DNA of 64,000 nucleotides from Candidatus Omnitrophota bacterium (lineage in GTDB: Bacteria > Omnitrophota > Gorgyraeia > Zapsychrales > Zapsychraceae), in NCBI GenBank assembly GCA_028280285.1, contig JANQMA010000026.1, forward strand, positions 822-64,821, given 5' to 3'. Of the stretch, positions 1 to 18,524 are shown in pieces. Position 1 is the first letter of the stretch. The number at the start of each line of letters is the position of its first letter. The notes under the pieces were generated by a model. It searched no databases and was not told the DNA's origin. It was given only the letters and a program-made list of their open reading frames with translations. Made by a program: the position numbers and the translations under genes.

Positions 1-3000
1 CATTCACAATTATCAGGTGTTTCTGACTGATAGCCATCTAAAGGTTATGCTGGAAAAGGACCTTTTTGCCGCACGCCAGGAAATTGGCGCAGATGTAGCG
101 CACATGGAGGCGGCAGGCGAACTGGTCAGCTCGGAAGAAGTAGCTGCTGTGATCCGTGAAGTGCTTATTCCTGAGATTGAGTACGAGATCAATCATGGTA
201 AAAATTTCGCGACACTCCGTCAGATTTTTAACTCTGTTATTTTGGCCTCTTGGTATAAAGACAATCTAAAGGAGTCTTTACTCGGGAAGGTGTATGTTGA
301 TCAAAATAAGCTTGAAGGAATCAATGACAATGATACGGCCACCAATGAAGCGATCTACAATCAGTATTTAGAGGCATTTAAAGCCGGTGTCTATGACTAT
401 ATTAAGGAAGGGTACGATCCGAGCGCCCAGCAAATGACAGCCAAAAAATACTTCTCAGGCGGAATTGCAGATTTAGTTAGTTTAAAGCGTAAAGATAATG
501 GAGTATTAGGCAAAGATCTTACGGGCAGTGATAGTGCGACTTTAGCTAATCAATTGCGTATTCGAATAGCGAATTTTGAAGTAAACCTTCTTGAGTGGGT
601 TAAAGAACTTACTTCTGGTATTGAGGAAAGGGCAAAACAAAAACATGAAGCAGCTGTCCGTTATCGGGATTTTATTGATACAAAAGAACGGGTTAACATA
701 GAAAAAGGTTTATCAAATTTACCTGAAAAATATGAAAGAGCTGCCAGAGCTTTAATGGAATTACCAAAAGCATATTTTTCACAGAGACAGATTAGAAGTT
801 TACAAACAAGAATTATAAAGTCACCTAGGCGTCAGTTAGAGAGTACAAGTGAAAGCATTGCACAGAGTTTAGAGCTCAAATTAACTAAGTCTATGTCTGC
901 TAATACTGAATATAATTATAACAACATAATACGCTTTGTGTTCAAAGATGTGGTTAGTGGAGCAAAAGCTTTGCATATTATTAGTACTGATATGAGTGGG
1001 AATTATCATGAACAACCTTGGATTAGGCCAAGTAAGGATATTAAATTAGTTGTTGATCTTTTTCGGAGATTTGCTGAGTTACAACCGGATCCCACTACGT
1101 TTAAAAAAGCAGATAATCTTTTGGCGAATTATTTTAACGATGGTAGCGCCACGGCTTGGGCTGCGATAGGTCTTGGTAATACAGAAATTACAGATCCGGA
1201 TTTCTATAGGGAGTTAATGGCAGGAAATCTTAGGCGTGAACAAATTGCCCAAAAGATTTTATATTTTTCAGAGATTGTAGATGAATATGAATCTGTTAAG
1301 CTTGATCGCACGACAGCCGTAACCGAAGATAAACTTATTGGATTTAATGGATTGAGGCCAGCAAGTGTGCTTGATGTGCTTCGTGAGCTAGTTGATATCG
1401 AAAAAATAATAAAAACCAGCGATGCCGCCTCTATTGCAGACATTCCCGATGATGTCATATCTCCTAAAAGGAAACAAGAGCACATAAATAAGCTTAAAAA
1501 AGCTGGTACGCTCGCCAGCAGTGTAGAGAAGCAAAAACTGAGAACTGACACGATTAAGGCTATGCTACAGGATTTTTATGAGTATACTCAAAGGATTTTA
1601 CGTGAGAACGACAAAAAAAGAAGCAGCAATAGTTTGACAACGCTAGGTTATTTTATGCCTGATATAAAGAGCATGGAGTTTCAGTATAATCAAAGTGAGT
1701 ATGAATTAGTAGAACAAGACAACAGTTTAGTTGTTTATTCTCTTGGTGACGAGCGCTCGATTTTACCAAATCAAGATATTACGAGTAATTTGCTTGTAGA
1801 GATTTCTAAGGTATTGAAGCAACGGGCAGACCGCATGACTCAAAAGACAGAAGAGGCTGTTAAAAAATCTTCAGACGAAGAGTGGGAAGAAATTTATAAC
1901 CTTGTTGGTGATGAAAGTGATGCATGGTTAGATTTAGATTCCGCTGAAGGCCAGATGAAAGATGAGGCCTCACTAGACACGCTGCTGATTGATTATAAAG
2001 GTCATGATCCTGAGTTGCGCGATGTGACCAATGTGATTAATGCGTTGCCTAAAAAATATCGTGAGGCAATAGAAGAAGCAGATCGTCCTTCATCTGTTGC
2101 TGATATAATTACGAAAGCTGAATCAGAGGGTTTGGTTGAATTTGCAATAATTACCAAGAGCGATCAGGTACGGCCAGCCATAAGGCGTTTATTTTATGAT
2201 GAAGAGCTGCTGCCAGTTACATCTGCGAGCTTGGCAGTGAATTATACTGGAAAAACTCAAATCACTAAGCGAGTTACTGAAGTGCTTAACGCCGAGGCAA
2301 AAGATGATTCAGATTTTGATCAACAATTAAGGGGAGGACTATTAAAGAGAGAAGTCATTATTGAAAGGGTTATGAATTCTAAACATGCGCCGGATGATTT
2401 GCGCGCAGGAGATAGATATGTTCTTATCGGCGCTGCGATCGATGAGTTGGTCGAACGGGGAAATATGAAAACCAGCGACGCCGCCGCGCTTGGGCAGGAA
2501 ACCGTGGACGAATTTGATGCGGCGGACTTGGATATCGAAAAAGAGGATGATTGGGATGATATCATAAAAGCTGTTCGTCAATTAAAGCCAGGGAAGACAG
2601 AAGAAGGTTTACATGAGGCTATTATGGCGTATATGAAGAGACACCAAAAAATGTTTAAGGTTGATCAGGGAGCATATGAGATGTATGTTCTTCCGCAAAT
2701 GAGTAGGATCTTTGCTGAATTTTATGAAATGGGGGGGATACCCCTGTACATGCTAAAAGGCCTTAAAGATCATCTTGATGAAATTTCAAAGGCACCGACA
2801 AGAGATGAACAGGTTTTTTTCCTAGCTACAGTAACTCTAAATATTTTGGGTCTACATGAATATGATGCGAAGAAGATTTTTTCTGATTCTTCTTTGCCGA
2901 TGCAGGACTCCGGTATTAGCAAAGAAGATAGAATTAATACAATTACCAAAAACTATGACGCACTGAAAGAAAAGGCCCAATTTTTAAGTGTAATTGAATC

Positions 3001-6000
3001 AAGACTTAAAGCTAAAAATAATCAAGGAGATGCGGATGCAGATAAGCTGCTACTTAGGCATCGTTTGTTGACCGATATAATACGGTCTAGTTTAGTTAGG
3101 TTCAGTGTATCTTTAGATCGTATGATTTCTGAGATGCGATTATCACTTGAAGTAGATGAAGAATCGGTTCAGGAAGTGGATCTGCATTATGTGGACTACA
3201 CTCTTCGGGCGATACATTTGACTTTAGACTTTTTAATAACAGATGTAGACAAAGCCGCGCTTGAGCAGACTGATGCGGCGATATTATTAAGTCCTGAGGA
3301 GGAAGAAAGAGCGCTATTATTAACAGCAGCTGAAGATCGAATTAATACGCTTTTGGATGAGCAGTACAAATCAGGAAGTGTAACAAAAGAAATTTATGAA
3401 AAATCAAGGAAAAGCGCCTTTAAAAATTTTAAAGAATGGACAGAAAGCGAAGAGCTGTACCGCTTAGCACCGGGGATTCGCATGGCCAATTTGCAGGCTG
3501 TCCGTGATGGACGTTTTAATGATATCGTGGAGGCTTATCGTCAAGAAATCGCCTTTGGAACAGCAGGTATTCGCGGGAAAGCGGCACTAACTCTGGATGA
3601 ACTTTTTAAAATGAAAGAGGATGGTCCAGCGGCAGCAATTCTTAAGGGAATTAACACAATTAATGATGTCGTTCTTCTACATAAAACAGCCGGTGTTATC
3701 AAATATGCACAGGAGACAGGGCGCACACGTATTGTGCTTGGGTATGATAGCCGCATCGGCGGATCAGAATTTATTGATATGATTGCGCGTTTATTCATTA
3801 AAGCGTCCAAGCCCGAACATGAATTTAAACTTTTTATTTTTGACGAATCGGCGCCTTTTCCAGAGCTGTCTTTTGGTATTACAACAAAAGAAGTTCAAGG
3901 GCATATCGGTATTTTTATATCGGCAAGCCATAACCCTGCGGATTATAACGGATACAAAATTACACTGGAAACAGGAGCCCAATTGAACCAAGAAAATAAA
4001 AATCTTGTATTGGATGCGGTAAATAGAACAACATTTGCAGATATTGTGTTAGCAGATTCACTTGCGGATGCTAAACCTGGACAAATTGTATGGTTAGGTG
4101 GGAAAGAAAGGCTAGAAGATAAGCAGTATTATGGATTTGATTTGATCGATATGCATACATTACATGTTGAACAGGTAAAAAAGTTGATTCTTGATAAAGA
4201 AGCGATCACGCGTGAAGGGCGTAATGTTAATATCGGATTTGCTGCATTTAATGGGGCCGGGCGCAAAGCAGTACCACGTTTGTTGGATGAAACAGATTTT
4301 GATAATGTAAAGGTTGTGTCAAAACTCCAAGAGTTAGACGGGCTTTTTCCTGCCTTTAAATATGGAGAACAACCCGATCCAGGTGACCCAATTGCAGGGG
4401 AAATTGCCGTCAATGAGTTCATTAAGGAGCATGGGCAAGAAGCGTTTGATGAACTAGATCTTCTGGTGGGAACTGATCCTGATTCTGATCGTATGGGCGC
4501 GGTACTGAAAGTCCCTGAAAGCCAACAAGCACAATTTGGAAAATATAGATTAATATCAGCCAATGATGCCTGGACACTCCTTACATGGTACAGACTTATG
4601 AAAAAGAAGGAGATGGGTTTATTAGAAAATCCCGAAAACCATCTTGTTGTAACAACACATGCAACGAGTGATGCGATTGCTGAAGTTGCTGAACAGGAAT
4701 TTGGTGTTGGTTCATATGGAAGAATGTTAGATATGAATAAAAAAGAAGATCGTGGAGATTATTTAAATGGTCAGCGCACATGGGTTGGCTTTACATATGT
4801 CTCAGAGGCTTTTGAGGAAATTTTAAAGATGGGGAAAGTTGCCGAAGGCGGTTATGAAGAATCTAATGGAATGAGTTTGCACGGACACACAAATGATAAA
4901 GATGGAACTTTGGCGGCCATTTTATTTGCGGAAATGGCGGCTTATGCGAAATCAGAAGGAACAACGCTATTTGAAATGCTCGATGAAATTTATTTAAAAA
5001 TAGGGCATTTTGGAACGGCTAACAAACCGTTACCAAGGGTTGGTTCGTTTGAAGGGGCAGCAGGCGTTTCAGAGAAAATTAATATATTAAAGAAAGCACA
5101 AGAGTGGGCGGCTGAAGCAAATAGTCGTGCCGGAACAGATAATCCTTTTATGATTGCCGGCCGTGAGGTTATCGGAGCCGTTGAGTTTAAATCGGGGCGC
5201 ATTGATCATAATCACTATGAAGGCGTACCTGATGAAGGAATTAGATTTTTCTTTAAAGATGAAAACATGAAAGAGGGGGATCATTTTATAAAGAGTAAAA
5301 ATTATGTAATGATTCGCCCTTCCGGTACATCTCAGACATTACGATTCTATACACAACTTCTTAAAAAAGTTGATCGTGAAAATATTGCTCAGCAAAAGCT
5401 GGAAAATTATATAGCGACAGAGCAATTAGCGCTTATGACGCAAAGGCAAATCTTGGGAGATGTTGGTTTGACTAAATATTTTGCAATGGTGGATGCACAA
5501 CTAGCGGAAGTAAGTCTTTCTAATGATAACGCAGCAATTGAAGAGGAAAAAGAAGATGCAGCAAGCTTGGCCGCTGAAGTTGCCTTGAAGCAGCTGGAAC
5601 GGGCCATTGGGGATGATTTTTCCTTTTTTATGAATTATACAGCAAAATTAGAGTATCAAGGTAATGTTAGAAATATTTATTATAACGATAATAGGCCTTT
5701 AGAATTAGAAATGTTAGAAAAAGTTATGCGTCATTATCAGAAATTGTTAATTGACCATGGGTTTTTCGATTTGGAGGTCAAGCGTCTGCGCATTCAAGGA
5801 TTACCGATTGACAATGAAGTCCTTAAGGTAACCCGTCAATCAGAATTTGAGTATGCTATAAATTTAGGCGATAGCAAGCCGGTTAGCATGAGTATTGATG
5901 ATATTCGTTCATTTATTAGACAAGCCCGGGCTAAGCTTCTTAAGAATGGAGATATAAGAAACGGTATTTTAACGCAACTGGCAAAACAATTAAGTAAAAA

Positions 6001-8059
6001 GGGTATTGCGCGTCTAGAGATTCAGCCATTCCTACCGTGGACTTCGGGATGGGTTTTTGAGTCTCATCCTGAGGGTAAGTTTGAGTTGTTGAGAAAGGGC
6101 AAGCCCGTTGAGGTGACGGAAGGGCTGTTGACTCGAATTGCAAACAAAGCTATAGAAGAACTAAACCGTAAAAAAGCTGAGAAGGATTTTAAAAACAAAG
6201 GATTTAAAAAATTACTCGAAGACGCCGCGGCATTTACAAAAGAAGATTTAGCAAGTATCGCCCGTATTTCAACAGAAATTATCTCAGAAGAAAAAATGAA
6301 AACAATTATAGCGAAACTAAAGGCAATTCGTGAATCATCAAGTACACCTTCAGAGCTAAAAGAATCACGTGAAAGTGCTGTGCAAGGAATGCTAAATGAC
6401 TTTCAAGAGTATGCTACGCAGGTTTTAGGCGAAATTAATACCCTAAGAGCGAAAGCAAATCAAGATCCTATTGAGGAATTTATTGGTAAATATGATACAT
6501 TCAATCATGATGGAAAAGATTATCATATTACTATGAACGAATCGCTCACAATTTTTGCTCAACATTGGAATGGTCCATTTCCTCTGGAAAGAGTTACTGG
6601 GGCTTTGTTAAGGGCAATATCAGTTAAACTTACTACTCAGAAAGACAATTTACAGGAGGATGTTAAGGCGTTAAATGCAGAAGCATTGGAAGCTGAGCAA
6701 AGTAAAATTGATGAGTTTCTTGATGATGCGGCATTAACAGTAGTTGAAGCAACGCCTGCCGACGCCGCGGCATTGAATATGGTAGAGAAATTGGCTAAAG
6801 GGCTTAACGGTCAAACAATAGGTCTGTTGACTCTGGATTATGATTCTGATGAGAGTAAAAGATCGGATACTAAAGGACTCGCTGTCTTTGAATTGAATAT
6901 GAAACAAGCAACTTCTATTAATGCATTTATGGAACTTCATGTTGGCGTTGAACGGATCAAAAAAGCCAAAGGTGAGAAGAAAGATACGATGCGTGTGTAT
7001 GTGAATTTGTCAGGACAGATTAAAGAGCAGACTGCTGATGGGATAGAGAGATTTGATGTGTTAGAAATTATTCAGGAAAGAGGTGAAGATCGAAAGATTG
7101 TGGAGGAGTTTGCTCATCAATTAATGGACAGACTTCCTTCCATTGTTGAGTTTGGGAATAGGGTTTTGCAGATTGATTTTGAAAAAAATATTGTTGATAC
7201 GGTAGGTGAGACAGAGCTTAAAGAGTACTTTGCAGAGCGTAAGGCTAAAGTAAAGGTTACACAATATGCCGGTGGACCTGTTATGAGTGTAATATTTGGT
7301 CCTGCCGCACTTGAGCAGGAAGGGCAAGACGGGTCCAATGATTATCTATTGTTTTCTGTATTAGCGAACTCAAAAGTTTTAACAAAAGATGATAAAAACG
7401 CACTTAATTTTACATATACCCGGGTTGATGACTACGTTGATTCAGTAAAGAGAACGCAAGATTTATATTGGGATGTTGTTGAAAAAATAGGTGATCGGTT
7501 AAAAGAAAAAGGGATTCTCAACGCGGAAATGACTTCACTTAAAATGAGGGCACCTGTCCTTGGAAAGTTTAGGGGAAAGACAATTATTTTTAAAGAAAAT
7601 CCGAATAGATTTAACGTTAACCAATATACGGCGCCGTCAACGAAATATGCTTTATTTAGATATGAAGGTGTGAAGGAAGTGATAATGAAGCCTGATGAGA
7701 TTACAGAATCTATGCTTCGTAAGGTAATTAAAGCGGCAAATAAAGCATTGGAAGATCACGCGGCACTTGACCCGCTTGGGGGTATTGATCTTAATCCTGA
7801 CCTTTTGGATCTGCAAATTAAGCGCGACGGCCGCGGTATTCCACTGCCACTTGATCAACAACCGCTTGAAAATATGCAAATTGACGGTTTTCTACCTATT
7901 ATTATTAATATTAATCCAGTTGCCAATTTGCCGCTTCTTTTGGGGCTTCTAGATGAGGATGGAGAGACCAATGAGGCTGAGGCGGATGCCTCTCAATCAG
8001 CGCAACTATATGGAAGAGAAGAACTTAGCTATTTAAGAGAAGGTGACAGCGAATTCTAA
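1..8059 (+). CDS. Giant exported-family protein, paralog A (5' end lies outside the window; >2680 aa) with embedded phosphohexomutase domain
   Basis: ORF is open to the window edge. Codons 2-16 (IHNYQ) continue the paralog alignment 'IYIHN..VFLTDSHLKVMLEKD' seen in 14001..17330, so GTG at 17 is internal. Shares the N-module (NFATLRQIFNSVILASWYKDNLKE...YFSGG) and C-module (GGIDLNPDLLDLQIKRDGRGIPLP...GFLPIIININPVANLPLLLGL) with the next two genes. Stop TAA at 8057-8059. Confidence 0.85.
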   Translation, partial: IHNYQVFLTDSHLKVMLEKDLFAARQEIGADVAHMEAAGELVSSEEVAAVIREVLIPEIEYEINHGKNFATLRQIFNSVILASWYKDNLKESLLGKVYVDQNKLEGINDNDTATNEAIYNQYLEAFKAGVYDYIKEGYDPSAQQMTAKKYFSGGIADLVSLKRKDNGVLGKDLTGSDSATLANQLRIRIANFEVNLLEWVKELTSGIEERAKQKHEAAVRYRDFIDTKERVNIEKGLSNLPEKYERAARALMELPKAYFSQRQIRSLQTRIIKSPRRQLESTSESIAQSLELKLTKSMSANTEYNYNNIIRFVFKDVVSGAKALHIISTDMSGNYHEQPWIRPSKDIKLVVDLFRRFAELQPDPTTFKKADNLLANYFNDGSATAWAAIGLGNTEITDPDFYRELMAGNLRREQIAQKILYFSEIVDEYESVKLDRTTAVTEDKLIGFNGLRPASVLDVLRELVDIEKIIKTSDAASIADIPDDVISPKRKQEHINKLKKAGTLASSVEKQKLRTDTIKAMLQDFYEYTQRILRENDKKRSSNSLTTLGYFMPDIKSMEFQYNQSEYELVEQDNSLVVYSLGDERSILPNQDITSNLLVEISKVLKQRADRMTQKTEEAVKKSSDEEWEEIYNLVGDESDAWLDLDSAEGQMKDEASLDTLLIDYKGHDPELRDVTNVINALPKKYREAIEEADRPSSVADIITKAESEGLVEFAIITKSDQVRPAIRRLFYDEELLPVTSASLAVNYTGKTQITKRVTEVLNAEAKDDSDFDQQLRGGLLKREVIIERVMNSKHAPDDLRAGDRYVLIGAAIDELVERGNMKTSDAAALGQETVDEFDAADLDIEKEDDWDDIIKAVRQLKPGKTEEGLHEAIMAYMKRHQKMFKVDQGAYEMYVLPQMSRIFAEFYEMGGIPLYMLKGLKDHLDEISKAPTRDEQVFFLATVTLNILGLHEYDAKKIFSDSSLPMQDSGISKEDRINTITKNYDALKEKAQFLSVIESRLKAKNNQGDADADKLLLRHRLLTDIIRSSLVRFSVSLDRMISEMRLSLEVDEESVQEVDLHYVDYTLRAIHLTLDFLITDVDKAALEQTDAAILLSPEEEERALLLTAAEDRINTLLDEQYKSGSVTKEIYEKSRKSAFKNFKEWTESEELYRLAPGIRMANLQAVRDGRFNDIVEAYRQEIAFGTAGIRGKAALTLDELFKMKEDGPAAAILKGINTINDVVLLHKTAGVIKYAQETGRTRIVLGYDSRIGGSEFIDMIARLFIKASKPEHEFKLFIFDESAPFPELSFGITTKEVQGHIGIFISASHNPADYNGYKITLETGAQLNQENKNLVLDAVNRTTFADIVLADSLADAKPGQIVWLGGKERLEDKQYYGFDLIDMHTLHVEQVKKLILDKEAITREGRNVNIGFAAFNGAGRKAVPRLLDETDFDNVKVVSKLQELDGLFPAFKYGEQPDPGDPIAGEIAVNEFIKEHGQEAFDELDLLVGTDPDSDRMGAVLKVPESQQAQFGKYRLISANDAWTLLTWYRLMKKKEMGLLENPENHLVVTTHATSDAIAEVAEQEFGVGSYGRMLDMNKKEDRGDYLNGQRTWVGFTYVSEAFEEILKMGKVAEGGYEESNGMSLHGHTNDKDGTLAAILFAEMAAYAKSEGTTLFEMLDEIYLKIGHFGTANKPLPRVGSFEGAAGVSEKINILKKAQEWAAEANSRAGTDNPFMIAGREVIGAVEFKSGRIDHNHYEGVPDEGIRFFFKDENMKEGDHFIKSKNYVMIRPSGTSQTLRFYTQLLKKVDRENIAQQKLENYIATEQLALMTQRQILGDVGLTKYFAMVDAQLAEVSLSNDNAAIEEEKEDAASLAAEVALKQLERAIGDDFSFFMNYTAKLEYQGNVRNIYYNDNRPLELEMLEKVMRHYQKLLIDHGFFDLEVKRLRIQGLPIDNEVLKVTRQSEFEYAINLGDSKPVSMSIDDIRSFIRQARAKLLKNGDIRNGILTQLAKQLSKKGIARLEIQPFLPWTSGWVFESHPEGKFELLRKGKPVEVTEGLLTRIANKAIEELNRKKAEKDFKNKGFKKLLEDAAAFTKEDLASIARISTEIISEEKMKTIIAKLKAIRESSSTPSELKESRESAVQGMLNDFQEYATQVLGEINTLRAKANQDPIEEFIGKYDTFNHDGKDYHITMNESLTIFAQHWNGPFPLERVTGALLRAISVKLTTQKDNLQEDVKALNAEALEAEQSKIDEFLDDAALTVVEATPADAAALNMVEKLAKGLNGQTIGLLTLDYDSDESKRSDTKGLAVFELNMKQATSINAFMELHVGVERIKKAKGEKKDTMRVYVNLSGQIKEQTADGIERFDVLEIIQERGEDRKIVEEFAHQLMDRLPSIVEFGNRVLQIDFEKNIVDTVGETELKEYFAERKAKVKVTQYAGGPVMSVIFGPAALEQEGQDGSNDYLLFSVLANSKVLTKDDKNALNFTYTRVDDYVDSVKRTQDLYWDVVEKIGDRLKEKGILNAEMTSLKMRAPVLGKFRGKTIIFKENPNRFNVNQYTAPSTKYALFRYEGVKEVIMKPDEITESMLRKVIKAANKALEDHAALDPLGGIDLNPDLLDLQIKRDGRGIPLPLDQQPLENMQIDGFLPIIININPVANLPLLLGLLDEDGETNEAEADASQSAQLYGREELSYLREGDSEF
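3389..5420 (+). other. Complete alpha-D-phosphohexomutase (PGM/PMM, PgcA/PGM2-like) domain embedded in the giant ORF
   Basis: All four family motifs are in frame. FGTAGIRG begins at 3551. Phosphoserine loop SASHNP is at 3920-3937. Metal loop GTDPDSDRMG is at 4469-4498. Sugar loop GGYEESNG is at 4847-4870. Phosphate loop IRPSGTSQTLRFY is at 5312-5350. Domain boundaries are approximate. Confidence 0.85.
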
Positions 8060-8192: not shown

Positions 8193-11100
8193 ATGTCTAT
8201 TAGTTTTAAATCATCCAGTAAATCTCCATTGACTCAGATTACATCCCTATTTGTCGCGTTTATATTTTGTTTTACTTCCGTTATTGCTCCCGGCTCGGCC
8301 CGGGCACAATTTATCCCGACACCGGCTGTCATGCCGGCAGTCGGCAGTATGGTGCAGATTTCCAATGCCTTTGATCCGCTTATTATCAAGGGTCTTACCA
8401 TTCATCCGGAGAATCCTCTGGAGTTTTCATTTTTAGTCGATTTAGGCGATACCAATTATAGCGAAACAAAGATCAAAGATGAGTCGCAGCGGCTGATTAC
8501 CTATTTTATGGCCGGTTTAACGGTCCCTGAAAGCGAGCTGTGGGTCAACCTTTCCCCTTATGAGAATAACCGTATTATTCCCGACAGCCTTGGCCAGACA
8601 GCCATGGGGCGTGATCTTCTCGCGCAAGACTATCTGCTTAAGCAGTTAACCGCGTCTTTAATGTATCCGGAAGATGAACTGGGCGATAAATTCTGGACAC
8701 AGATTAAACAGCGTGTGGAAGCTTTATATGGTCCGGGCGTTGATATCCCGACCAATGTGTTTAACAAGGTCTGGATTATGCCGGAAAGTGCGGAAATCTA
8801 TATTCATAACACCAGTGTTTTTCTTTTGGGTAGCCGTCTTCAGGTTATGCTGGAAGAAGATTATGTGGCGGCGCGCAAGGCCATTGGCGCGGATGTTGCG
8901 CATATGGAGACTGCCGGAGAGTTATTGGGCCATCAAGAGGTAGCGGAGGTTGTCCGTGAAGTGATCCTGCCGGCTATTGAAGAAGAAGTCAACTTTGGCG
9001 AAAACTTTTCTACCCTGCGGCAAATCTTTAATTCGATTATCCTTGCCTCCTGGTACAAAGACAATCTGAAAGAAACGATTTTAGGCCAGATTTATGCCGA
9101 TCAAAACAAGCTTAAAGGGATTGATGAAAACGACAAGCAAACAAATCAGCAGATTTATCAAAAGTATTTAGAGGCCTTTGAAGAGGGTGTTTATAACTAT
9201 ATTAGAGAAGAGTACGATCCGGCTAAGCAGCAGATTATTCCACGCAAATACTTCTCCGGCGGATGGCTTCATGATCAGGCAGCGCTACTCACTCATGAAA
9301 ATACAGTAGTGGAAGGCCAGTACGGCCAACCCCTTGATGCAGCCGTGCTTCAGAATTTTGGCAAGGCTATGACTCCTGAAGTTGTGAGGAAAATGAAACG
9401 AGTTAGGGCTCAATTGGCTCAAGAAAGTGCGAAAACGCATACAGTTGAGTCAATTGCTTACCAACCGCTTTTGTCTAATATTCCAAAGACAATAATTAAT
9501 AATGTGGAGGCTAGCCAACTAACCGATTTATTACAAGAAGATCAAATTAATCTCATCGCCAGAAAAACGCTGCTTGAGCTTATTAATCAGAGGGGTGTTT
9601 TGGATTATGGGATTGATGTTAATGTGCAAGCGGGTGAAGCGATCGATTTTATTTTTAACACAGACATGGATGACCGGATTATGCGTGCCGTGCGCACAGA
9701 ATTGCAATCGGAAGAAGAGTTGAGCACGCAACGCATGCTTGATTTGTTAGATGCATTTAGTGTAGAAGTTACGATTGTTGAAGGTGGTGCTTCTCGTTCT
9801 GAGGAAATGAGTTTGCGTGATTATATTCAAGGTAATCTCCAACATGCCGTTTATTTGGCCCATGCTGTCGGTAATGCGGATGAAAGAGGTGATGAGTCGA
9901 CGCGTGTAAGAAAGCGAAGAGGAATAAGAGAACAATTAGAACGTAGCTTTCCCGGTGTTAGCTCGGTAACTCTTAGAACTATTGCGCGTGATTTGGTTAA
10001 ATTACAAAGGAACAGATTAAATGATGATCATATGTCATTAATCGTACAAGCTGTTTCTGATAAGGTCCAGGCTAAGGTTAGTTTTGATCAGGTATACACA
10101 ACAGATGAATTTTCTTTCCGTGTTAGAAAGCAAGGGCAACTGGAAATCGCCGCGGCACGGGGAAACATTTTTAGTGATGTATCGTGGGGTAGCTTAACAG
10201 TCAATCAGCTAGGCCTTATAGCCCAGGCGGTTGACAATGCTTCGATACAAGATCCCGTCGAACCCGGTACGATTCAACAGCAATCAATGGTGAAAGAATC
10301 CGCTGATTTTAACCGGATTACTTCATATGCGGGGCAATCTTTCCAAAGAGATAATTTGTCTCAATTGATGCGTGAAGCAAGCTTTGTATCAGAGAGCCGT
10401 GAAAATTTTGTTGAGTTAAGAGATCAATTCGAACGCATACGAACGGCGTCAGATCCGCAGGGTAGCATTGTTGGTATTAAGGTTATTGAAAATACTCAGC
10501 CTCTTCAATATGGAGGGGGTTTTGAGCTTGACGGCATAGTATATGTTGAACAAAGCTTATTAGATCATATCGAAAAGAATAATAACCCTTTTAATATGCG
10601 TGAACGTATGTTGCGCAATTTCTTTCGTAAAGGAACTGCCCTTGAGAGAAAAATTGCGGAATATGATGAATTGGTTCAAAAATACGGAGAATCCAGGTTA
10701 AACTTATTTCCGGAAGGCCGTGTCCTACAAAGCTATCGCGATACGCTTTATGGGCAATTACCGGCAGATAAAAATAATACAGAAAGGCTTAATATTATAC
10801 TTGAAAAACACGGATTCAATAATGTTAAAATTACTGAGCCTGATGAAAAAGCGATTGAATTAACTAATATATTAAAGGAACACATTGATATTGCTTTATA
10901 CACAATGGCGATCAATTCGGCGAATAAATTTATTGATTTAAATAAAAATATCCGTATGCATACGGATGATCCTTTATTGGATTCAAATGAGGAGTATGTA
11001 GCTAATTTTTTTGCTTTCGCCGCTTATCCAGCGACTGTTGCGCACTTTATTACTGTTGCCTTAAAAGGAGGCGCGCTGTCCTATTCGGATGATAATATTT

Positions 11101-13742
11101 TTTATGTGTCCAAAGATCAGCTAAAACCAGAGGCCTATCGTGAATATGATAGTCGTTATGATATTACGGAAGCCGTAGTGGAAAATACTATGCAAGGTCT
11201 GGCACGGTTAATGCCCAAAACGACTGAAAGGCAGGGCAAAAATGGAGAAAACATGTTGCTTCCTCTGGCTGAAAAGAATATAGGAGCTAAGCAAATCACT
11301 TTTAATTATATGATTGGGGAGGATCATTGGCTTGCCTTTGCGCGCTATACTGAAGACCATGTGAAAAAAGCAAAGCGAACAATTAATGATCTTGAGAAAG
11401 AAAAAGAGCAATTAAACAGTAAGATAAAAAATGCTGAGGTGCCAGAAGAAAAAGATCAAACGGAGTTTCGAGTAGAAATTAATAGGCGCCTAACAGAGAT
11501 TGATCAAAAAATAGAGCACAACCAGAATATTAAGGCGGGAGGTATTATACCCACCCGTGTAAAGTTGGATGAAGCGGATTTTATGGTTATGGAGGGGTAT
11601 CTGGATTTATTGAAATTATTGCTTGAGAAGGATAAAGAAAGCTTAACAGATCAGCAGGTTGAGGCCATTGAAGTACTCCTTGACCAAAGAGCTCTTTTCT
11701 TAGATGAATTGTCTGATGCGGCTGAGGAAGATAGGAAGTTAGATAACGATGACCCTGAAGATACGCCACATTTGTTTGAAGTATTTAAAAAATATGGTAT
11801 TTCAGAAGTTCCTAAGCTGGACACAGCCGGAAAGATTCATTTATCGGCAAAGGAATTTAAAAAACGTCATCCGGATCAGCCTATTGAAATGAGGGTTGTA
11901 ATTACCAAGCGCGGCAGTATTATGGAAGATAAAATTCGCGATGAGCTTAAAGTTCCACATACTATTAATCCAGGTTTGGACTATCCGGTTTCTTCAACCG
12001 CACTGAGAACTGCGCTTGTGAATATTCCACGTGATAGGTTAGACCGAGGTGAATTGCCTTTTGTATTTATCGATACCGTGGATGAATTATTAGAATCTCA
12101 GAGGAGAGAACATCTTTATTCATTGTTATTGACAAAAAGTGAACCAACCCTAGCTAATGCACTTGAAGTTGTATTTCCTAAAAATCAAGCAAGAAAAGAA
12201 CAGCGGCATACTCAATTAAGAGCAGATCTTCAACAGGCGCTTCAAGAGGGATATTATACCAACAATGTAAATGTTGATGGGCATGTTGAGCCCAAAAACA
12301 ACCGTTCTGTATTGGACATTCAAGTTAATGACGATAAATTTCGTGTTGTCTATAATGTTGTCAATCGTGCAAAGACAAAGGGAAACATAGTTCGATTTGC
12401 TGTTAGCGATCAGAATAATAAAGAAATTAGTCAGACGGAGTGGTCAGAAAAATCTGTTTTAAGTAGTGCCGTAGAAGAATATTTGAAAAGTTATACTGGC
12501 GCTGTTGTTACGACATACTTGCCACTTGAGGAGTTAAGTAAACGTGAGCTTGTCCATCAAAGAGGTAAGGATCTCAATTTTCTTTCCAGCAATGATGGTC
12601 AAATTATGCAATTCATGCAAGAGTTTGCGCAGGAATTCACACATGATACTACTACTGAATCCCGTGAACAAGAATTATCAGAAGACTTTGAGCTTGTTGT
12701 CTTTGACCGCCCACGATTTTTACGTCAAGATGGGCGGATTGAGATTCAATTTACTCATCAAATATTTAATGATCCAGTTAATAAGGCATGGACAGCAGAT
12801 GGATATTTTCAATATATTGATGAAAAAATTGTTTCTGAGCTAAATTGGTTTTTAAGTGATAGGCGACTAAAAGCCGAAGCGCTAAACAATACGTTAACGA
12901 TCAATAAGAATAGAGACGGCATGCCTTACGTTACAATGGAAATTGAAATATCTAAGGTCTCGGCTACTTTGGGGCAAAAAGACAGTGAAAACGAGTCCGA
13001 CGCCCCGACTATGACCAGTGGACAAAGATTATTTGTTGTTAACGAATCGCAGAATAAGGTAAACCAATTTAGTGTAGAGGATATGGATCCTGATTTTGGA
13101 AGGATAAAAAGCACGGCAACGGTACGGTTTCTTCCGTCGAACGGTAACGGTGTTGTCAAGGGTATGGTGAGGTATATTCCTAATCAACGTGATAATTCAA
13201 ATCAAAATGAATTAAATAAATTAAAATTTAAATTAAAAGAAAAATATGTGCAGAATAATGAACAAGAAAAGCGCGATATCGAAGAGGAAATTAAAACACT
13301 TGAGACTAAGCTTAAAGAAAGCAGGGAAAATGTTTTAACAAAACTTGAAAAGGAGTTAAATTCTTTAAACGATGACCTCAATCCCGGAGAAACACAGGAG
13401 TATGATGTTAAACCTTCTCGACTCGTTACCAATGATGGCTTTGAACTAACCATTACGTTGCAGGATAACGCAGCGGTTACAGCCGATCCGGTGGGTGGTA
13501 TTGATCTTAATCCCGAGATGCTTGATCTTCAGATCAAACGCGACGCAAGCGGCATGCCGCTTCCGGTGAGTCAGCAGCCGATTATCAATATGGATATCGA
13601 AGGGTTTGTGCCGGTTATTATTAATATCACGCCTGTTACCAATGTTCCGCTTATGCTGGGTTTAATTAATGAAGGAACGATTGAGGTAGAAGAAGAGCCG
13701 CTTGAGGCCGTTCAGGCCGTCCGGTTTGATGAGTTGAGTTAA
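8193..13742 (+). CDS. Giant exported-family protein, paralog B (1849 aa)
   Basis: ATG 8193 is preceded by GGAAGGGG. Signal peptide ends ...APGSARA|QF. Has the conserved N-module and C-module (GGIDLNPEMLDLQIKRDASGMPLP...GFVPVIINITPVTNVPLMLGL) around a unique ~1400-aa core with coiled-coil stretches. Confidence 0.85.
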   Translation: MSISFKSSSKSPLTQITSLFVAFIFCFTSVIAPGSARAQFIPTPAVMPAVGSMVQISNAFDPLIIKGLTIHPENPLEFSFLVDLGDTNYSETKIKDESQRLITYFMAGLTVPESELWVNLSPYENNRIIPDSLGQTAMGRDLLAQDYLLKQLTASLMYPEDELGDKFWTQIKQRVEALYGPGVDIPTNVFNKVWIMPESAEIYIHNTSVFLLGSRLQVMLEEDYVAARKAIGADVAHMETAGELLGHQEVAEVVREVILPAIEEEVNFGENFSTLRQIFNSIILASWYKDNLKETILGQIYADQNKLKGIDENDKQTNQQIYQKYLEAFEEGVYNYIREEYDPAKQQIIPRKYFSGGWLHDQAALLTHENTVVEGQYGQPLDAAVLQNFGKAMTPEVVRKMKRVRAQLAQESAKTHTVESIAYQPLLSNIPKTIINNVEASQLTDLLQEDQINLIARKTLLELINQRGVLDYGIDVNVQAGEAIDFIFNTDMDDRIMRAVRTELQSEEELSTQRMLDLLDAFSVEVTIVEGGASRSEEMSLRDYIQGNLQHAVYLAHAVGNADERGDESTRVRKRRGIREQLERSFPGVSSVTLRTIARDLVKLQRNRLNDDHMSLIVQAVSDKVQAKVSFDQVYTTDEFSFRVRKQGQLEIAAARGNIFSDVSWGSLTVNQLGLIAQAVDNASIQDPVEPGTIQQQSMVKESADFNRITSYAGQSFQRDNLSQLMREASFVSESRENFVELRDQFERIRTASDPQGSIVGIKVIENTQPLQYGGGFELDGIVYVEQSLLDHIEKNNNPFNMRERMLRNFFRKGTALERKIAEYDELVQKYGESRLNLFPEGRVLQSYRDTLYGQLPADKNNTERLNIILEKHGFNNVKITEPDEKAIELTNILKEHIDIALYTMAINSANKFIDLNKNIRMHTDDPLLDSNEEYVANFFAFAAYPATVAHFITVALKGGALSYSDDNIFYVSKDQLKPEAYREYDSRYDITEAVVENTMQGLARLMPKTTERQGKNGENMLLPLAEKNIGAKQITFNYMIGEDHWLAFARYTEDHVKKAKRTINDLEKEKEQLNSKIKNAEVPEEKDQTEFRVEINRRLTEIDQKIEHNQNIKAGGIIPTRVKLDEADFMVMEGYLDLLKLLLEKDKESLTDQQVEAIEVLLDQRALFLDELSDAAEEDRKLDNDDPEDTPHLFEVFKKYGISEVPKLDTAGKIHLSAKEFKKRHPDQPIEMRVVITKRGSIMEDKIRDELKVPHTINPGLDYPVSSTALRTALVNIPRDRLDRGELPFVFIDTVDELLESQRREHLYSLLLTKSEPTLANALEVVFPKNQARKEQRHTQLRADLQQALQEGYYTNNVNVDGHVEPKNNRSVLDIQVNDDKFRVVYNVVNRAKTKGNIVRFAVSDQNNKEISQTEWSEKSVLSSAVEEYLKSYTGAVVTTYLPLEELSKRELVHQRGKDLNFLSSNDGQIMQFMQEFAQEFTHDTTTESREQELSEDFELVVFDRPRFLRQDGRIEIQFTHQIFNDPVNKAWTADGYFQYIDEKIVSELNWFLSDRRLKAEALNNTLTINKNRDGMPYVTMEIEISKVSATLGQKDSENESDAPTMTSGQRLFVVNESQNKVNQFSVEDMDPDFGRIKSTATVRFLPSNGNGVVKGMVRYIPNQRDNSNQNELNKLKFKLKEKYVQNNEQEKRDIEEEIKTLETKLKESRENVLTKLEKELNSLNDDLNPGETQEYDVKPSRLVTNDGFELTITLQDNAAVTADPVGGIDLNPEMLDLQIKRDASGMPLPVSQQPIINMDIEGFVPVIINITPVTNVPLMLGLINEGTIEVEEEPLEAVQAVRFDELS

Positions 13743-17000: not shown

Positions 17001-17330
17001 TTTTCCCAAATAAAAGATATAGTCCGCGGGTTTGACTTGAGCGCAGATAATGCTCATCTGACACCCGGTGGTATTGACCTTAATACCAAGATGCTTGATC
17101 TTAAGCTTGAGTATGATGGCAGCAATATACTGCCTACCGTGGATCCTGCGGTCTTAAAAGACATCAACATTAAAGGGCTTACCCCAATTATTACGAATGT
17201 GGTGCCGATCAGCAATTTGCCGCTTATGCTCGGGTTTGGTGATGGGCCGGGTTCGGATGACTCCGGGCCCTATACGATGGGGTCTGTTGGCGATCTTTCC
17301 TATCTTAAGTCGCAGGAGTTATATAAGTAA
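14001..17330 (+). CDS. Giant exported-family protein, paralog C (1109 aa)
   Basis: TTG start lies 6 nt after GAAGGAG. Signal peptide ends ...PTNTYA|EQ. The N-module is about 3/4 identical to paralog A by hand count over ~150 aa. C-module is GGIDLNTKMLDLKLEYDGSNILP...GLTPIITNVVPISNLPLMLGF. The core is unique. Confidence 0.85.
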   Translation: MKSLKSFILSKVISSLTILIFLLGNIIIPTNTYAEQIATPVFMPPVGSMIGASEMYTPTIINGLIINPDDPLQFSFLVDAGDANLQGEAFKEESQRLVNYFMAGLAVPEDEIWVNLSPYEKNRIVPDALGQTAMGRDLLAQDYLLKQFTASLMYPEDEMGKAFWKRIKEKVSTKHGIDDIPTNMFSKVWIVPESAKIYIHNMTVFLTDSHLKVMLEKDYLATREAVGDDVSHMETEQELLSSENVASIIRDIIIPEIEHEVNHGKNFAPLRQIFNSVILASWYKANLKESLLGQIYIDQNKIEGINDNAPATNQAIYDQYLEAFKAGVYNYVKEEYDPAAQQMVAQKYFSGGIANDFAAMVDNSKLQTVGKIMDGLDPANISDLQNSNSGSIQRVDVEVKPEEINLTTVDAAILEEISYIKALLELSFEEEGNNGDEEFIEEIMSSTSRIIDYFKGAEEKDFKSDYEETVQHLVWWLGFKLREASSPEDGLNKTIQVNFLHKGNEYEYVEKNDINRSMVRVKSDSWKKEVSPINTPSLAENISLLEVMLASSRRNLDTHVRRPVKNDVIERVRKWPLFVFENNAERRWVLDALTRRRNKDINLGSLQLDGFDAILDRIISRQLKGQKRNVTVDEKQILLNPINNRKTLYGGADISSIPILVLLSIVEEIYELKMSNEVIETTRKKMESVKDNTWNIVRKFIDEQMSEYEDHELVWSIYTKPDSDFNTETVLVIVPKKENIDREKFNRQIGILSEAIIENVNLPEGINIFKQGDKNASDKDLLIFREKEDVKFTDAESGEILEFYEGVKLRIKHAPEFFQLDGKGNQSVLSQNDREKRAVRNITRDFYLDLRVADETKDDLKRIDVHYYYGLSSGRRGVVPIYVKQDEDINNIADALLFGVQSQVNETNFYRLIFNDVRSTLVRLFDGENQKRLNQFDKIIAEAVKKGKFASEAKEKIFKWGRENQQYTDKEGLEEFLRAQYATFNIDSEIILKHLLDSDYFSQIKDIVRGFDLSADNAHLTPGGIDLNTKMLDLKLEYDGSNILPTVDPAVLKDINIKGLTPIITNVVPISNLPLMLGFGDGPGSDDSGPYTMGSVGDLSYLKSQELYK

Positions 17331-18513: not shown

Positions 18514-18524
18514 ATTCGAACAAG

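What the first reader, a model, noticed from the sequence alone, without database searches (positions are those of the whole stretch)
3389..5420. Motif-intact cytoplasmic-type phosphohexomutase embedded in the middle of a giant exported-family protein
Seen in sequence. About 680 aa inside paralog A carry the complete ordered motif set of alpha-D-phosphohexomutases. These are FGTAGIRG, the phosphoserine loop SASHNPADYNGYK, the Mg loop GTDPDSDRMG, the sugar loop GGYEESNG and the phosphate loop IRPSGTSQTLRFY, plus the N-terminal helical extension typical of PgcA/PGM2-type enzymes. Established knowledge: these motifs define catalytically competent PGM/PMM enzymes, which normally are free-standing cytoplasmic proteins of 450-600 aa. 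Here the domain has more than 1100 aa upstream and about 880 aa downstream. It sits between the family-specific N- and C-modules, and no stop or frameshift appears anywhere in 8 kb. Inference: an enzymatic 'cargo' in a modular exported protein. It could act on sugar phosphates outside the producer's cytoplasm, for example inside a host or prey cell if the family is an effector family. Alternatively it has been repurposed as a sugar-phosphate-binding module.
Basis: partly seen in the sequence, partly recalled or inferred. Interest (0 to 1): 0.82.

Follow-up and report, generated by a model that had tools for sequence, protein, structure and literature searches.

The report
Phosphoglucomutase cassette inside Omnitrophota modular protein
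A complete, apparently working sugar-phosphate mutase really is built into the middle of a 2,888-residue signal-peptide-bearing protein of an Omnitrophota bacterium, but such embedded metabolic enzymes are a recurrent feature of this phylum's long proteins that two preprints have already noted.

Summary
All five phosphohexomutase motifs sit in order in one stop-free frame (window nt 2-8059), which belongs to a 2,888-aa protein. The real unit is a 748-aa cassette (nt 3281-5524). It is a full copy of a widespread, free-standing, leaderless ~740-aa "long-form" alpha-D-phosphohexomutase. The model has pLDDT 95 and a four-domain PGM fold, and the catalytic residues are invariant.

The fusion is not an assembly artefact. 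An independent assembly is identical over 18 kb. In 14 of 16 Omnitrophota species representatives that carry the cassette, it lies inside ORFs larger than a free-standing enzyme. It often sits beside UDP-glucose pyrophosphorylase, PGI, PFK or PGK cassettes.

The carrier belongs to a large family found almost only in Omnitrophota. It consists of a Sec-type signal peptide, a ~350-aa N-module, variable cassettes and a "GGIDLNP" C-module (4,287 clusters). Its recognisable cargo is mostly central-metabolism enzymes, and PGM is the commonest.

Two preprints already report PGM/PMM domains in long Omnitrophota proteins, so this is a new member of a known kind. Where the enzyme acts is unresolved: periplasm or surface, host, or cytoplasm after processing. 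The carrier family and a D-x-A-[A/M]-L junction motif were not found described in the searched literature.

The parts
2..8059 (+). Paralog A: the C-terminal 2,685 codons plus stop of a 2,888-aa modular protein (P0265). The first 203 codons, including the signal peptide, lie left of the window.
   Evidence: L064 is 100% identical to the window over 18,059 nt.
2..463 (+). C-terminal part of the conserved N-module, ending in the near-invariant 'KKYFSGG' (YFSGG at nt 449-463).
   Evidence: 60-68% identical to the N-modules of paralogs B and C. N-module family search: 1,044 clusters; nearly all hits that carry a source name are Omnitrophota/Omnitrophica MAGs. YFSGG position.
3272..3280 (+). 'DAA' junction motif immediately upstream of the PGM cassette (…EQTDAA|ILLSPEEEE…).
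   Evidence: Homology to relatives begins at window residues 1089-1107. Motif enrichment.
3281..5524 (+). PGM cassette of 748 aa: a ~90-aa N-terminal helical extension, the four phosphohexomutase domains, and two C-terminal helices. It equals an entire free-standing ~740-aa long-form phosphohexomutase.
   Evidence: (pLDDT 95.3, pTM 0.94).
3554..3577 (+). Domain I motif FGTAGIRG.
   Evidence: F, G, T, G and R are invariant in the 60-sequence alignment.
3920..3958 (+). Phosphoserine loop SASHNPADYNGYK. The catalytic Ser is the S before H, nt 3926-3928.
   Evidence: Aligns with ITASHNPAPYNGIK of 2f7l. S-A-S-H-N is invariant.
4469..4498 (+). Metal-binding loop GTDPDSDRMG (D-x-D-x-D-R).
   Evidence: Aligns with ATDGDADRVG of 1tuo. 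Invariant.
4847..4870 (+). Sugar-binding loop GGYEESNG.
   Evidence: E, S and G are invariant.
5312..5350 (+). Phosphate-binding loop IRPSGTSQTLRFY (domain IV).
   Evidence: R, S, G, T and R are invariant.
5525..5536 (+). 'DNAA' junction motif immediately downstream of the cassette. A second motif, 'EDAAS', follows 10 residues later.
   Evidence: Homology to relatives ends at residues 1834-1857.
1409..1861 (+). Orphan module that starts right after a 'SDAAS' motif. It is a distant internal repeat of the module at 6209-6691.
   Evidence: 26% identity over 140 aa, pairwise E 4e-09. No Pfam or PDB match.
6209..6691 (+). Second copy of the orphan module, starting after 'EDAAA'.
7742..7966 (+). C-module (…DHAALDPLGGIDLNPDLLDLQIKRDG…IININPVANLPLLLGLL), followed by a ~30-aa acidic tail to the stop.
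   Evidence: Profile search: 4,287 representative clusters, always 20-35 aa from the C-terminus.
8193..13742 (+). Paralog B (1,849 aa from the ATG): signal peptide, N-module, orphan cargo, C-module.
   Evidence: (P0266). No Pfam or NCBIfam hit.
14001..17330 (+). Paralog C (1,109 aa): signal peptide, N-module, orphan cargo, C-module.
   Evidence: (P0267).

Best explanation
What it is. The segment is the core of a 748-aa cassette. The cassette is a complete copy of a 'long-form' alpha-D-phosphohexomutase, spliced between short D-(x)-A-A linker motifs. The host protein is a 2,888-aa member of a modular family found almost only in Omnitrophota: Sec-type signal peptide, ~350-aa N-module, variable cassettes, ~65-aa 'GGIDLNP' C-module.

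Shown:
- One uninterrupted ORF, reproduced by an independent assembly.
- A confident four-domain PGM fold with every catalytic residue retained.
- The same cassette embedded in signal-peptide-bearing carriers in most Omnitrophota species that have it, often next to UDP-glucose pyrophosphorylase, PGI, PFK or PGK cassettes.

Inferred:
- The module is an active mutase. It would interconvert hexose-1-phosphate and hexose-6-phosphate through its phosphoserine and a bisphosphate intermediate.
- It works as one bead of a tethered sugar-phosphate / sugar-nucleotide enzyme string.
- The polypeptide is taken across the inner membrane by Sec. The enzyme would then act in the periplasm, at the cell surface, or at the interface with a host or prey cell, where sugar phosphates become available. 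Chlamydia's secreted PGM acts outside its bacterium in a comparable way.

The identity and integrity of the fusion are near-certain (about 0.9). The site of action is the weak step (about 0.4 for extracytoplasmic catalysis). The confidence given is for the explanation as a whole.
For: ORF and motifs.

Cassette equals a whole free-standing enzyme. Hits of 739-751 aa cover 97-100% of the query at 36-41% identity. They have no leader peptides and sit in housekeeping contexts.

Structure: pLDDT 95.3, pTM 0.94. Foldseek hits to PMM/PGM and PGM1 structures reach E 3.6e-24 with TM up to 0.87.

Catalytic residues are invariant across 60 sequences. All motif scans are positive in 12 of the 16 Omnitrophota species representatives.

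Assembly: L064, from another assembler, is identical over 18,059 nt. The protein is on record from NCBI and Logan.

Recurrent embedding:
- L007: N…PGM…C, 2,243 aa
- L012: N-UDPGP-PGM-RR-C, 2,480 aa
- L008: N-PGM-C
- L014: PGM-PGK-UDPGP
- L022: PGM-PGI
- L017: at least 7,401 aa
- Ca. Zapsychrus exili: N-UDPGP-PFK-PGI-(TGA)-PGM

Signal peptides. The full-length A N-terminus is MILTFQRSSKTLSSRIFSFFLAFTFIFSSIMPTGAAAQ. Sixty of 60 family members with a complete N-terminus begin with a signal-peptide-like segment, by my inspection of the 25 printed. The complete carriers whose start is clear (L007, L008, L012, L014, L022) have such N-termini.

C-module: 4,287 clusters, always near the C-terminus.

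Cargo census: PGM is the commonest Pfam cargo, in 4 of 16 proteins.

Precedent for a housekeeping PGM working outside the bacterium: PMC9251005, PMC4829429.

Prior reports of PGM domains in long Omnitrophota proteins.
Against: No localisation or activity data exist.

PGM needs Mg2+, a glucose-1,6-bisphosphate primer and phosphosugar substrates. Sister cassettes need other factors: UDPGP, PFK, PGK and PPDK need UTP or ATP, GAPDH needs NAD, and receiver domains need a phosphodonor. None of these is known in a periplasm or outside cells.

The signal peptide was judged by eye only (positive n-region, hydrophobic core, AxA-like site). No predictor was available.

One relative (L022) has FGTAGIRE and RPAGT variants, so not every copy need be active.

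Protein A has no recognisable partner enzyme. Its other modules are orphans.
Confidence: 0.55

Rival explanations
1. Polyprotein. The long protein is a precursor that is cut at the D-x-A-[A/M]-L junctions, and possibly after the GG of 'YFSGG' and 'GGIDLN'. This would release a free ~750-aa PGM and the other modules, which then act as separate enzymes.
For: The junction motif is enriched about 5-fold in cargo regions: 67 observed versus 12.5±3.0 expected, and 115 versus 22±4.9.

The motif brackets whole enzyme domains:
- In L001, UDPGP, PFK and PGI begin 19, 20 and 57 aa after DAAM/DQAM motifs, and PGI ends 16 aa before the next motif.
- In P0289, the receiver domain at 511-600 lies between motifs at 503 and 638.
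- The window cassette is flanked by DAA and DNAA.
- The motif occurs at 7 of 27 PGM junctions, against about 0.03 expected per 40-residue junction window.

West-Roberts et al. raise cleavage of giant Omnitrophota proteins as an open question and note that no cleavage points are known.
Against: No protease domain was found in A, B or C. The motif is absent from many family members and from most PGM junctions. A linker, docking or recombination-scar role explains the same pattern. There are no proteomic data.
Confidence: 0.2
2. Cytoplasmic, membrane-tethered metabolon. The N-terminal hydrophobic segment targets or anchors the protein, but the enzyme string stays on the cytoplasmic side. There it channels hexose phosphates towards UDP-sugars for envelope glycan or glycogen synthesis.
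For: The cargo is overwhelmingly cytoplasmic-type, nucleotide-dependent enzymes and receiver domains. PGM, UDPGP and PGI form a coherent G6P→G1P→UDP-Glc route. In the window, the three paralogs lie directly upstream, on the same strand, of a UDP-sugar/glycan biosynthesis cluster. The 2026 preprint favours a cytoplasmic-face reading for the sugar-metabolism module in TM-only long proteins.
Against: The charge distribution (K/R before the hydrophobic core, an AxA-like site after it, and an acidic mature start) predicts N-in/C-out. I noticed no obvious second hydrophobic segment in the translation that could return the chain to the cytoplasm, but no topology predictor was run. A conserved module at the extreme C-terminus is typical of sorting signals of exported proteins. 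LysM cargo in one relative is an extracytoplasmic-type domain.
Confidence: 0.2
3. Repurposed, non-catalytic module. The PGM fold is kept as a sugar-phosphate or glycan-binding or adhesive domain (moonlighting surface 'glycolytic enzyme'), not as a mutase.
For: PGM5 is a precedent for an inactive phosphoglucomutase paralog that keeps intact substrate binding (PMC7761743, listed). Some embedded copies show substitutions in motifs, such as L022 FGTAGIRE/RPAGT and L014 SASHNQ. From my own knowledge, surface-displayed glycolytic enzymes acting as adhesins are known in other bacteria.
Against: The catalytic Ser, all three metal-binding Asp, the sugar-loop Glu/Ser and the phosphate-loop Arg/Ser/Thr are retained in the window copy. 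They are invariant across the 60 aligned free-standing and embedded homologues at 38-60% overall identity. That is the pattern expected under selection for catalysis.
Confidence: 0.12
4. Artefact or separate gene. The fusion would be a chimeric assembly, would hide a frameshift, or the cassette would be translated from its own internal start.
For: The window comes from a metagenome-type assembly, and read mapping was not possible. One relative (L001/L013) has a single in-frame TGA inside its cassette's N-terminal extension.
Against: An independent Logan assembly is identical over 18,059 nt. Complete N…PGM…C ORFs exist in other species (L007, L012, L008). Cassette boundaries coincide with family linker motifs, not with contig or coverage features. 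There is no ATG/GTG/TTG with a usable spacing at the cassette start, and promoter-like sites occur at chance frequency (46 versus 48.7±8.0).
Confidence: 0.02

Closest known systems
Multi-enzyme long or giant proteins of Omnitrophota ('Archaeovorins' and 'multi-enzyme metabolic clusters'; bioRxiv 10.1101/2023.11.21.568195 and 10.64898/2026.06.07.730766)
   Same: Same phylum. The proteins are long, carry a signal peptide and/or TM segments, and contain whole sugar-metabolism enzyme domains. PGM/PMM is named explicitly: PF02878/79/80 occur in 88/65/64 of 916 proteins of at least 10 kaa. TIM, PGI, FBPase, aldolase and PPDK are also reported. The same puzzle, predicted-extracellular metabolic enzymes, is raised.
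   Different: The window protein is only 2,888 aa, below those studies' size cut-offs. It lacks HEAT, GT5, C39 and dockerin content. It belongs to a sharply defined N-module/C-module family with tandem paralogs, which neither preprint describes (term searches found nothing).
Free-standing long-form (~740 aa) alpha-D-phosphohexomutase-like proteins of uncultivated bacteria and archaea (for example P0010, P0022, P0055)
   Same: Colinear over the full 748 aa, including the N-terminal helical extension and C-terminal helices, at 36-52% identity and with identical catalytic motifs.
   Different: They are stand-alone and leaderless, in housekeeping neighbourhoods. I found no characterised member, so substrate specificity is unknown.
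Characterised PMM/PGM and PGM enzymes (T. kodakarensis 9du5, P. horikoshii 1wqa, T. thermophilus 1tuo, P. aeruginosa PMM/PGM, Salmonella 3olp, human PGM1)
   Same: Four-domain fold and all four active-site loops.
   Different: Only 14-21% identity. The cassette has about 200-300 extra residues as terminal helices and insertions. NCBIfam equivalog scores are far below their cut-offs (75 versus 439 for archaeal GlmM). It is not specifically PgcA/PGM2-like.
Chlamydia trachomatis CT295, a housekeeping PGM that is a type 3 secretion substrate (PMC9251005), and secreted chlamydial glycogen enzymes (PMC4829429)
   Same: A cytoplasmic-type PGM from a host-dependent bacterium (Chlamydiae, which to my knowledge belong to the same PVC group as Omnitrophota) acquired an export signal. 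It acts on hexose phosphates outside the bacterial cytoplasm, together with other glucose-polymer enzymes.
   Different: CT295 is a stand-alone enzyme with a T3S signal. Here the enzyme is one cassette of a Sec-signal-bearing multi-module protein, and no secretion or activity has been shown.
Exported proteins with a conserved C-terminal sorting domain (T9SS CTD, PEP-CTERM, LPXTG) or with conserved termini and a variable middle (flagellins with enzymatic inserts)
   Same: The layout is an N-terminal signal peptide, hypervariable cargo, and a short conserved module at the extreme C-terminus.
   Different: There is no sequence or Pfam similarity to any of these. The resemblance is architectural only and is recalled from general knowledge.

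Membership tests
alpha-D-phosphohexomutase superfamily | Phosphoserine loop [ST]-[AG]-S-H-N-P…G-[YFI]-K | tested here: met
   GIFISASHNPADYNGYK at window residues 1303-1319. Aligned to ITASHNPAPYNGIK of 2f7l. Invariant in A2.
alpha-D-phosphohexomutase superfamily | Metal-binding loop D-x-D-x-D-R | tested here: met
   GTDPDSDRMG. Aligned to TDGDADRVG of 1tuo. Invariant.
alpha-D-phosphohexomutase superfamily | Sugar-binding loop (Glu/Ser) and phosphate-binding loop (R-x-S-G-T…R) | tested here: met
   GGYEESNG and IRPSGTSQTLR.
alpha-D-phosphohexomutase superfamily | Four-domain fold; Pfam domains I-IV above threshold | tested here: met
   PF02878, PF02879 and PF02880 are above their gathering scores. 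PF00408 (domain IV) is not detected by sequence. The AF2 model (pLDDT 95.3) aligns over 630-690 columns to full-length PMM/PGM and PGM1 structures, TMt 0.7-0.87.
alpha-D-phosphohexomutase superfamily | Mutase activity on a hexose phosphate | not testable with these tools
   Needs an enzyme assay of the excised cassette.
   The best PDB hits are archaeal and Thermus PMM/PGMs, then PGM1-type enzymes. NCBIfam gives only sub-threshold partial hits to archaeal GlmM, PgmG and GlmM. The true relatives are an uncharacterised ~740-aa clade.
Long-form (~740 aa) phosphohexomutase clade | Colinear over the whole length, including N- and C-terminal helical extensions | tested here: met
   97-100% query coverage at 36-63% identity to 739-751-aa proteins. 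Alignment A2. In an NJ tree without bootstrap support, the window copy falls within the Omnitrophota group.
Omnitrophota SP–N-module–cargo–'GGIDLNP' C-module family (not found described in the literature searched) | N-terminal Sec-type signal peptide followed by the ~350-aa N-module ending in YFSGG | tested here: met
   The window holds the last ~155 residues of the N-module (60-68% identical to B and C). Full-length P0265 has the signal peptide and the whole module. The signal peptide was judged by sequence inspection only.
Omnitrophota SP–N-module–cargo–'GGIDLNP' C-module family (not found described in the literature searched) | Conserved C-module 20-35 residues from the C-terminus | tested here: met
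   nt 7742-7966. P0265 is the top hit of the profile search (E 1.2e-33).
Archaeovorin / giant proteins of Omnitrophota (West-Roberts et al. 2023; 2026 preprint catalogue) | Length at least 10,000 aa (2026 catalogue) or about 30,000 aa and above (2023) | tested here: not met
   2,888 aa.
Archaeovorin / giant proteins of Omnitrophota (West-Roberts et al. 2023; 2026 preprint catalogue) | HEAT repeats, GT5/GT1, C39 peptidase and multiple TM helices | tested here: not met
   No such Pfam hits in A, B or C. It works like these proteins (embedded sugar-metabolism enzymes, N-terminal signal) but is not a member by their criteria.
Secreted chlamydial PGM (CT295-type) | Type 3 secretion signal and demonstrated secretion | not tested
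   Functional analogy only (PMC9251005). No T3SS evidence was examined in this window.

The most novel reading that the evidence does not exclude
The SP–N-module–cassettes–GGIDLNP family would be a phylum-wide, dedicated system. It has 4,287 clusters at 50% identity and tandem paralogs in this genome. It would export whole central-metabolism enzymes as modular cassettes punctuated by D-x-A-[A/M]-L junctions. The cargo seen includes PGM, UDPGP, PGI, PFK, PGK, GAPDH, TIM, PPDK, isocitrate lyase and malate synthase. The junctions would be processing sites, and the C-module a new sorting signal. The released or displayed enzymes would operate outside the producer, for example in the cytoplasm or lysate of a host or prey cell. 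That would amount to an 'exported metabolism' for ultra-small episymbionts.
Probability: 0.15. Interest if true: 0.85.

Novelty: new member of a known kind. Interest (0 to 1): 0.5.

Why it matters
If the cassette is active and really leaves the cytoplasm, it is part of an unusual strategy: a bacterium with a tiny cell places core sugar-phosphate metabolism on exported, modular polypeptides.

This locus is a compact, tractable example of a phenomenon so far described only for proteins too large to handle. It has three tandem paralogs of 1.1-2.9 kaa and one clean enzyme cassette.

The defined N- and C-modules and the junction motif give concrete handles on the open question raised in the giant-gene literature. 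That question is whether these proteins act whole or are cut, and where. The handles include constructs for export assays and predicted cleavage or boundary sites for proteomics.

Tried and rejected
1. A single-protein scan of genome contigs with the cassette found no relatives. It succeeded with a subgroup alignment.
2. The word-indexed search with the C-module profile returned only 24 short contig-end fragments. The exhaustive profile search replaced it.
4. The orphan modules of A have no PDB sequence match and no BLASTP homology to relatives or paralogs.
5. A literature search for 'GGIDL' found nothing relevant.
6. Internal start or promoter at the cassette: promoter-like sites occur at chance level. 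The GAGGAGG at nt 3296-3302 simply encodes EE(E) and has no start codon downstream in frame.
7. The idea that the 'M' of DxAM is the relic start codon of captured genes was considered and not adopted. The D-x-A part is conserved at protein level, and the window copy has A/I instead of M.
8. C39-type double-glycine cleavage after 'YFSGG' and 'GG|IDLN' was considered. The upstream residues do not fit the leader consensus as I recall it, and no C39 domain is present. It is kept only as speculation.
9. The PgcA/PGM2 assignment was rejected.
Full report
**1. The observation**

Frame 2 of the + strand is open from nt 2 to the stop at 8057-8059 (2,685 codons).
- FGTAGIRG: nt 3554-3577
- SASHNPADYNGYK: nt 3920-3958
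- GTDPDSDRMG: nt 4469-4498
- GGYEESNG: nt 4847-4870
- IRPSGTSQTLRFY: nt 5312-5350

Pfam PGM_PMM_I, II and III all exceed their gathering scores. HMMER alignments to solved PMM/PGMs place the Ser loop, the Mg loop and the sugar loop opposite their counterparts.

The ORF runs off the left edge of the window. The complete protein is on record as P0265 (2,888 aa). Its N-terminus, MILTFQRSSKTLSSRIFSFFLAFTFIFSSIMPTGAAAQ, looks like a Sec signal peptide. Window residue 1 is full-length residue 204.

**2. What the PGM segment is**

A search with residues 1130-1806 returned two groups of hits.
- About 14 close relatives (52-63% identity). Most of those that carry a source name are from Omnitrophota MAGs, and many are fragments cut by contig ends.
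- Hundreds of free-standing proteins of 739-751 aa that cover 97-100% of the query at 36-41% identity. They come from many uncultivated bacterial lineages and apparently from archaea.

The free-standing proteins have no leader peptide and lie in housekeeping neighbourhoods.

The region of A that is homologous to relatives starts at window residues 1089-1107 and ends at 1834-1857. That is exactly between a 'DAA' motif (1091-1093) and a 'DNAA' motif (1842-1845). The unit is therefore a 748-aa cassette (nt 3281-5524) that equals one whole long-form enzyme.

With a 60-sequence alignment, AlphaFold2 gives pLDDT 95.3 and pTM 0.94 for the whole cassette. The model has a ~90-residue N-terminal helical extension, four alpha/beta domains and two C-terminal helices. 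Foldseek matches full-length PMM/PGM and PGM1 structures (E down to 3.6e-24, target TM 0.7-0.87, 14-21% identity).

The following residues are invariant in all 60 sequences:
- the catalytic Ser-His-Asn
- the three Asp and the Arg of the metal loop
- the sugar-loop Glu and Ser
- the phosphate-loop Arg, Ser, Gly and Thr

The PgcA/PGM2 label is not supported. NCBIfam equivalog scores are far below their cut-offs, and the nearest structures are archaeal or Thermus enzymes.

**3. The fusion is real and recurrent**

A Logan assembly of SRR20820735 (L064) is identical to the window over 18,059 nt, spanning all three paralogs.

A scan of one genome per GTDB species found the cassette at 49-63% identity in 16 genomes. 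Most are labelled Omnitrophota, and a few carry other labels that may be mislabels. In 14 of them the cassette lies inside an ORF larger than a free-standing enzyme:

| Locus | ORF | Layout |
|---|---|---|
| L007 | 2,243 aa, complete | N-module…PGM…C-module |
| L012 | 2,480 aa | N-UDPGP-PGM-receiver-C |
| L008, L010 | ~1,200 aa | N-PGM-C variant |
| L014 | 1,997 aa | PGM-PGK-UDPGP |
| L022 | 3,511 aa | PGM-PGI |
| L017 | at least 7,401 aa, open at both ends | PRK, PPDK, PGM, LysM |
| L018 | at least 4,956 aa | not scanned against Pfam |

Of the remaining two, one is free-standing (L020) and one has TM segments (L009).

In Ca. Zapsychrus exili, a 2,027-aa N-UDPGP-PFK-PGI protein is separated from the PGM cassette by a single in-frame TGA.

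Motif scans are fully positive in 12 of the 16 copies. The exceptions:
- L021 is cut by a contig end.
- L007 has a conservative RTSGT.
- L014 has SASHNQ.
- L022 has FGTAGIRE and RPAGT.

An NJ tree, not bootstrapped, puts embedded and free-standing Omnitrophota copies in one clade.

**4. The carrier**

Paralogs B (nt 8193-13742) and C (nt 14001-17330) share only two things with A. One is a signal peptide plus a ~350-aa N-module ending in YFSGG. The other is a ~65-aa C-module (…GGIDLNP.LLDLQIKRDG…P.IINI.P..NLPLLLGL) about 30 residues from the C-terminus.

- The N-module search gave 1,044 clusters. Nearly all hits that carry a source name are Omnitrophota/Omnitrophica MAGs, and the continuations after the module are hypervariable.
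- An exhaustive profile search with the C-module found 4,287 representative clusters (1,531 at E≤1e-10). The match is always at the extreme C-terminus, in proteins of up to 5,312 aa.
- Of 75 hits of at least 700 aa, 62 have the N-module. Sixty have complete N-termini, and the 25 that were printed all look like signal peptides.

A Pfam census of 16 large members shows what the recognisable cargo is:
- PGM in 4 of 16, the commonest
- PGK in 3
- isocitrate lyase, malate synthase and UDPGP in 2 each
- PPDK, GAPDH, TIM, an aminotransferase, a receiver domain and WD40 propellers in single members

The other modules of A are orphans. Two of them are distant internal repeats, and each starts after a DAA motif.

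**5. Junction motif**

D-x-A-[A/M], usually followed by L, is about 5-fold enriched in cargo regions. The counts are 67 versus 12.5±3.0 and 115 versus 22±4.9 for the five-residue form.

It brackets whole Pfam domains in L001 and P0289. It occurs at 7 of 27 PGM-cassette junctions, where about 0.03 would be expected per 40-residue junction window. It is not universal.

**6. How it most likely works**

Shown: an intact long-form phosphohexomutase cassette is part of a single long protein that carries a signal peptide.

Inferred: it is catalytically active. It would serve with UDPGP, PGI, PFK or PGK-type cassettes as a tethered sugar-phosphate / sugar-nucleotide line.

The N-terminal sequence predicts Sec export. 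That would put the enzyme in the periplasm, on the surface, or at a host interface. Chlamydia offers a precedent: its PGM CT295 is a type 3 secretion substrate, and glycogen enzymes act outside the bacterium (PMC9251005, PMC4829429).

Against this, the cargo needs nucleotides and cytoplasmic partners. A cytoplasmic tether or proteolytic release therefore remain live rivals. No internal start or promoter supports an independent gene.

**7. Comparison with what is known, and novelty**

Two preprints already report PGM/PMM domains in long Omnitrophota proteins.
- West-Roberts et al. 2023 list them, with TIM, GPI, FBPase and aldolase, in 'Archaeovorins'. They note the predicted extracellular location and ask whether the proteins are cleaved.
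- A 2026 preprint counts PF02878/79/80 in 88/65/64 of 916 proteins of at least 10 kaa, as part of a sugar-metabolism module.

The window protein is much smaller and lacks their hallmark domains. It is a new member of a known kind rather than a new phenomenon. I did not find the N/C-module family, its size, its enzyme-rich cargo or the junction motif described in the searchable literature.

**8. Verdict**

- Observation: confirmed.
- Interpretation: partly supported. 'Enzymatic cargo in a modular, signal-peptide family' is right. The extracytoplasmic or effector action is unproven. The subgroup label is wrong.
- Interest: moderate (0.5). The embedded PGM itself is ordinary for this phylum. The locus is nevertheless a compact entry point to an unresolved question.

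Noticed in passing
window 8193-13742 and 14001-17330: Two further tandem paralogs (1,849 and 1,109 aa) share only the signal peptide, N-module and C-module with A. Their middle regions have no Pfam or NCBIfam match and no similarity to each other. The strongest promoter-like site in the first 17.5 kb (11 of 12 matches) lies at 8105-8134, in the gap before paralog B.
   Followed up: partly
family-wide; window residues 474, 826, 1091, 1842, 1852, 2074, 2242, 2254, 2588; L001 protein residues 399, 917, 1375, 1987: A short D-(x)-A-[A/M]-(L) motif punctuates module junctions. It is about 5-fold enriched over shuffles and brackets whole UDPGP, PFK, PGI, receiver and PGM domains. It is a candidate boundary or processing site for Omnitrophota long proteins.
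   Followed up: partly
L001 (= Ca. Zapsychrus exili JAVCCJ010000069.1) nt 9959-9961: A single in-frame TGA separates a 2,027-aa N-UDPGP-PFK-PGI gene from the PGM cassette, which continues in the same frame. The stop falls inside the cassette's N-terminal helical extension. It could be a nonsense mutation, a sequencing error or recoding; this is unresolved.
   Followed up: partly
window 1409-1861 and 6209-6691: Two orphan modules of protein A are distant internal repeats (26% identity over 140 aa, pairwise E 4e-09). Each begins right after a DAA motif.
   Followed up: yes
window 17446-26703 and 40330-42750: Directly downstream and on the same strand lies a UDP-sugar/glycan biosynthesis cluster. 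It includes three GFO/IDH/MocA oxidoreductases, two DegT aminotransferases, two hexapeptide acyltransferases, a UDP-GlcNAc 2-epimerase, GT2 and GT1 genes and a DUF354 gene. A functional link to the PGM-bearing protein is possible but untested.
   Followed up: partly
L002/L003 and L014 (Omnitrophota loci): A second carrier type carries the same PGM cassette. It has a short signal peptide (MG[VI]FGQ[KR]KY…) and proteins in a tandem array that end in '…QAI', '…SAI' or '…NAI'. Small PilZ genes are interspersed, as West-Roberts et al. noted next to giant genes.
   Followed up: no
family members in alignment A5: Isocitrate lyase and malate synthase domains occur as cargo in 2 of 16 large family proteins each (best E 7e-69 and 3e-31). 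Yet the 2026 preprint scores the glyoxylate shunt as absent in all 176 complete Omnitrophota genomes. Embedded copies may escape KO-based annotation.
   Followed up: no
P0009 (1,034 aa, JGI): An Omnitrophota-type PGM cassette is followed, in the same predicted protein, by a CsrA domain (PF02599) at the C-terminus. This could be a real fusion or a gene-calling merge.
   Followed up: no
window 1-64000: GC skew is positive in every 2-kb bin, and nearly all ORFs of at least 150 aa that appear to be genes are on the + strand. The only exceptions are 35396-39756 and 58035-59564. This is consistent with one replichore of a small genome.
   Followed up: no
window 49113-50312: A GH5 cellulase-family gene sits among housekeeping genes (SpoU methylases, an alpha/beta hydrolase).
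   Followed up: no
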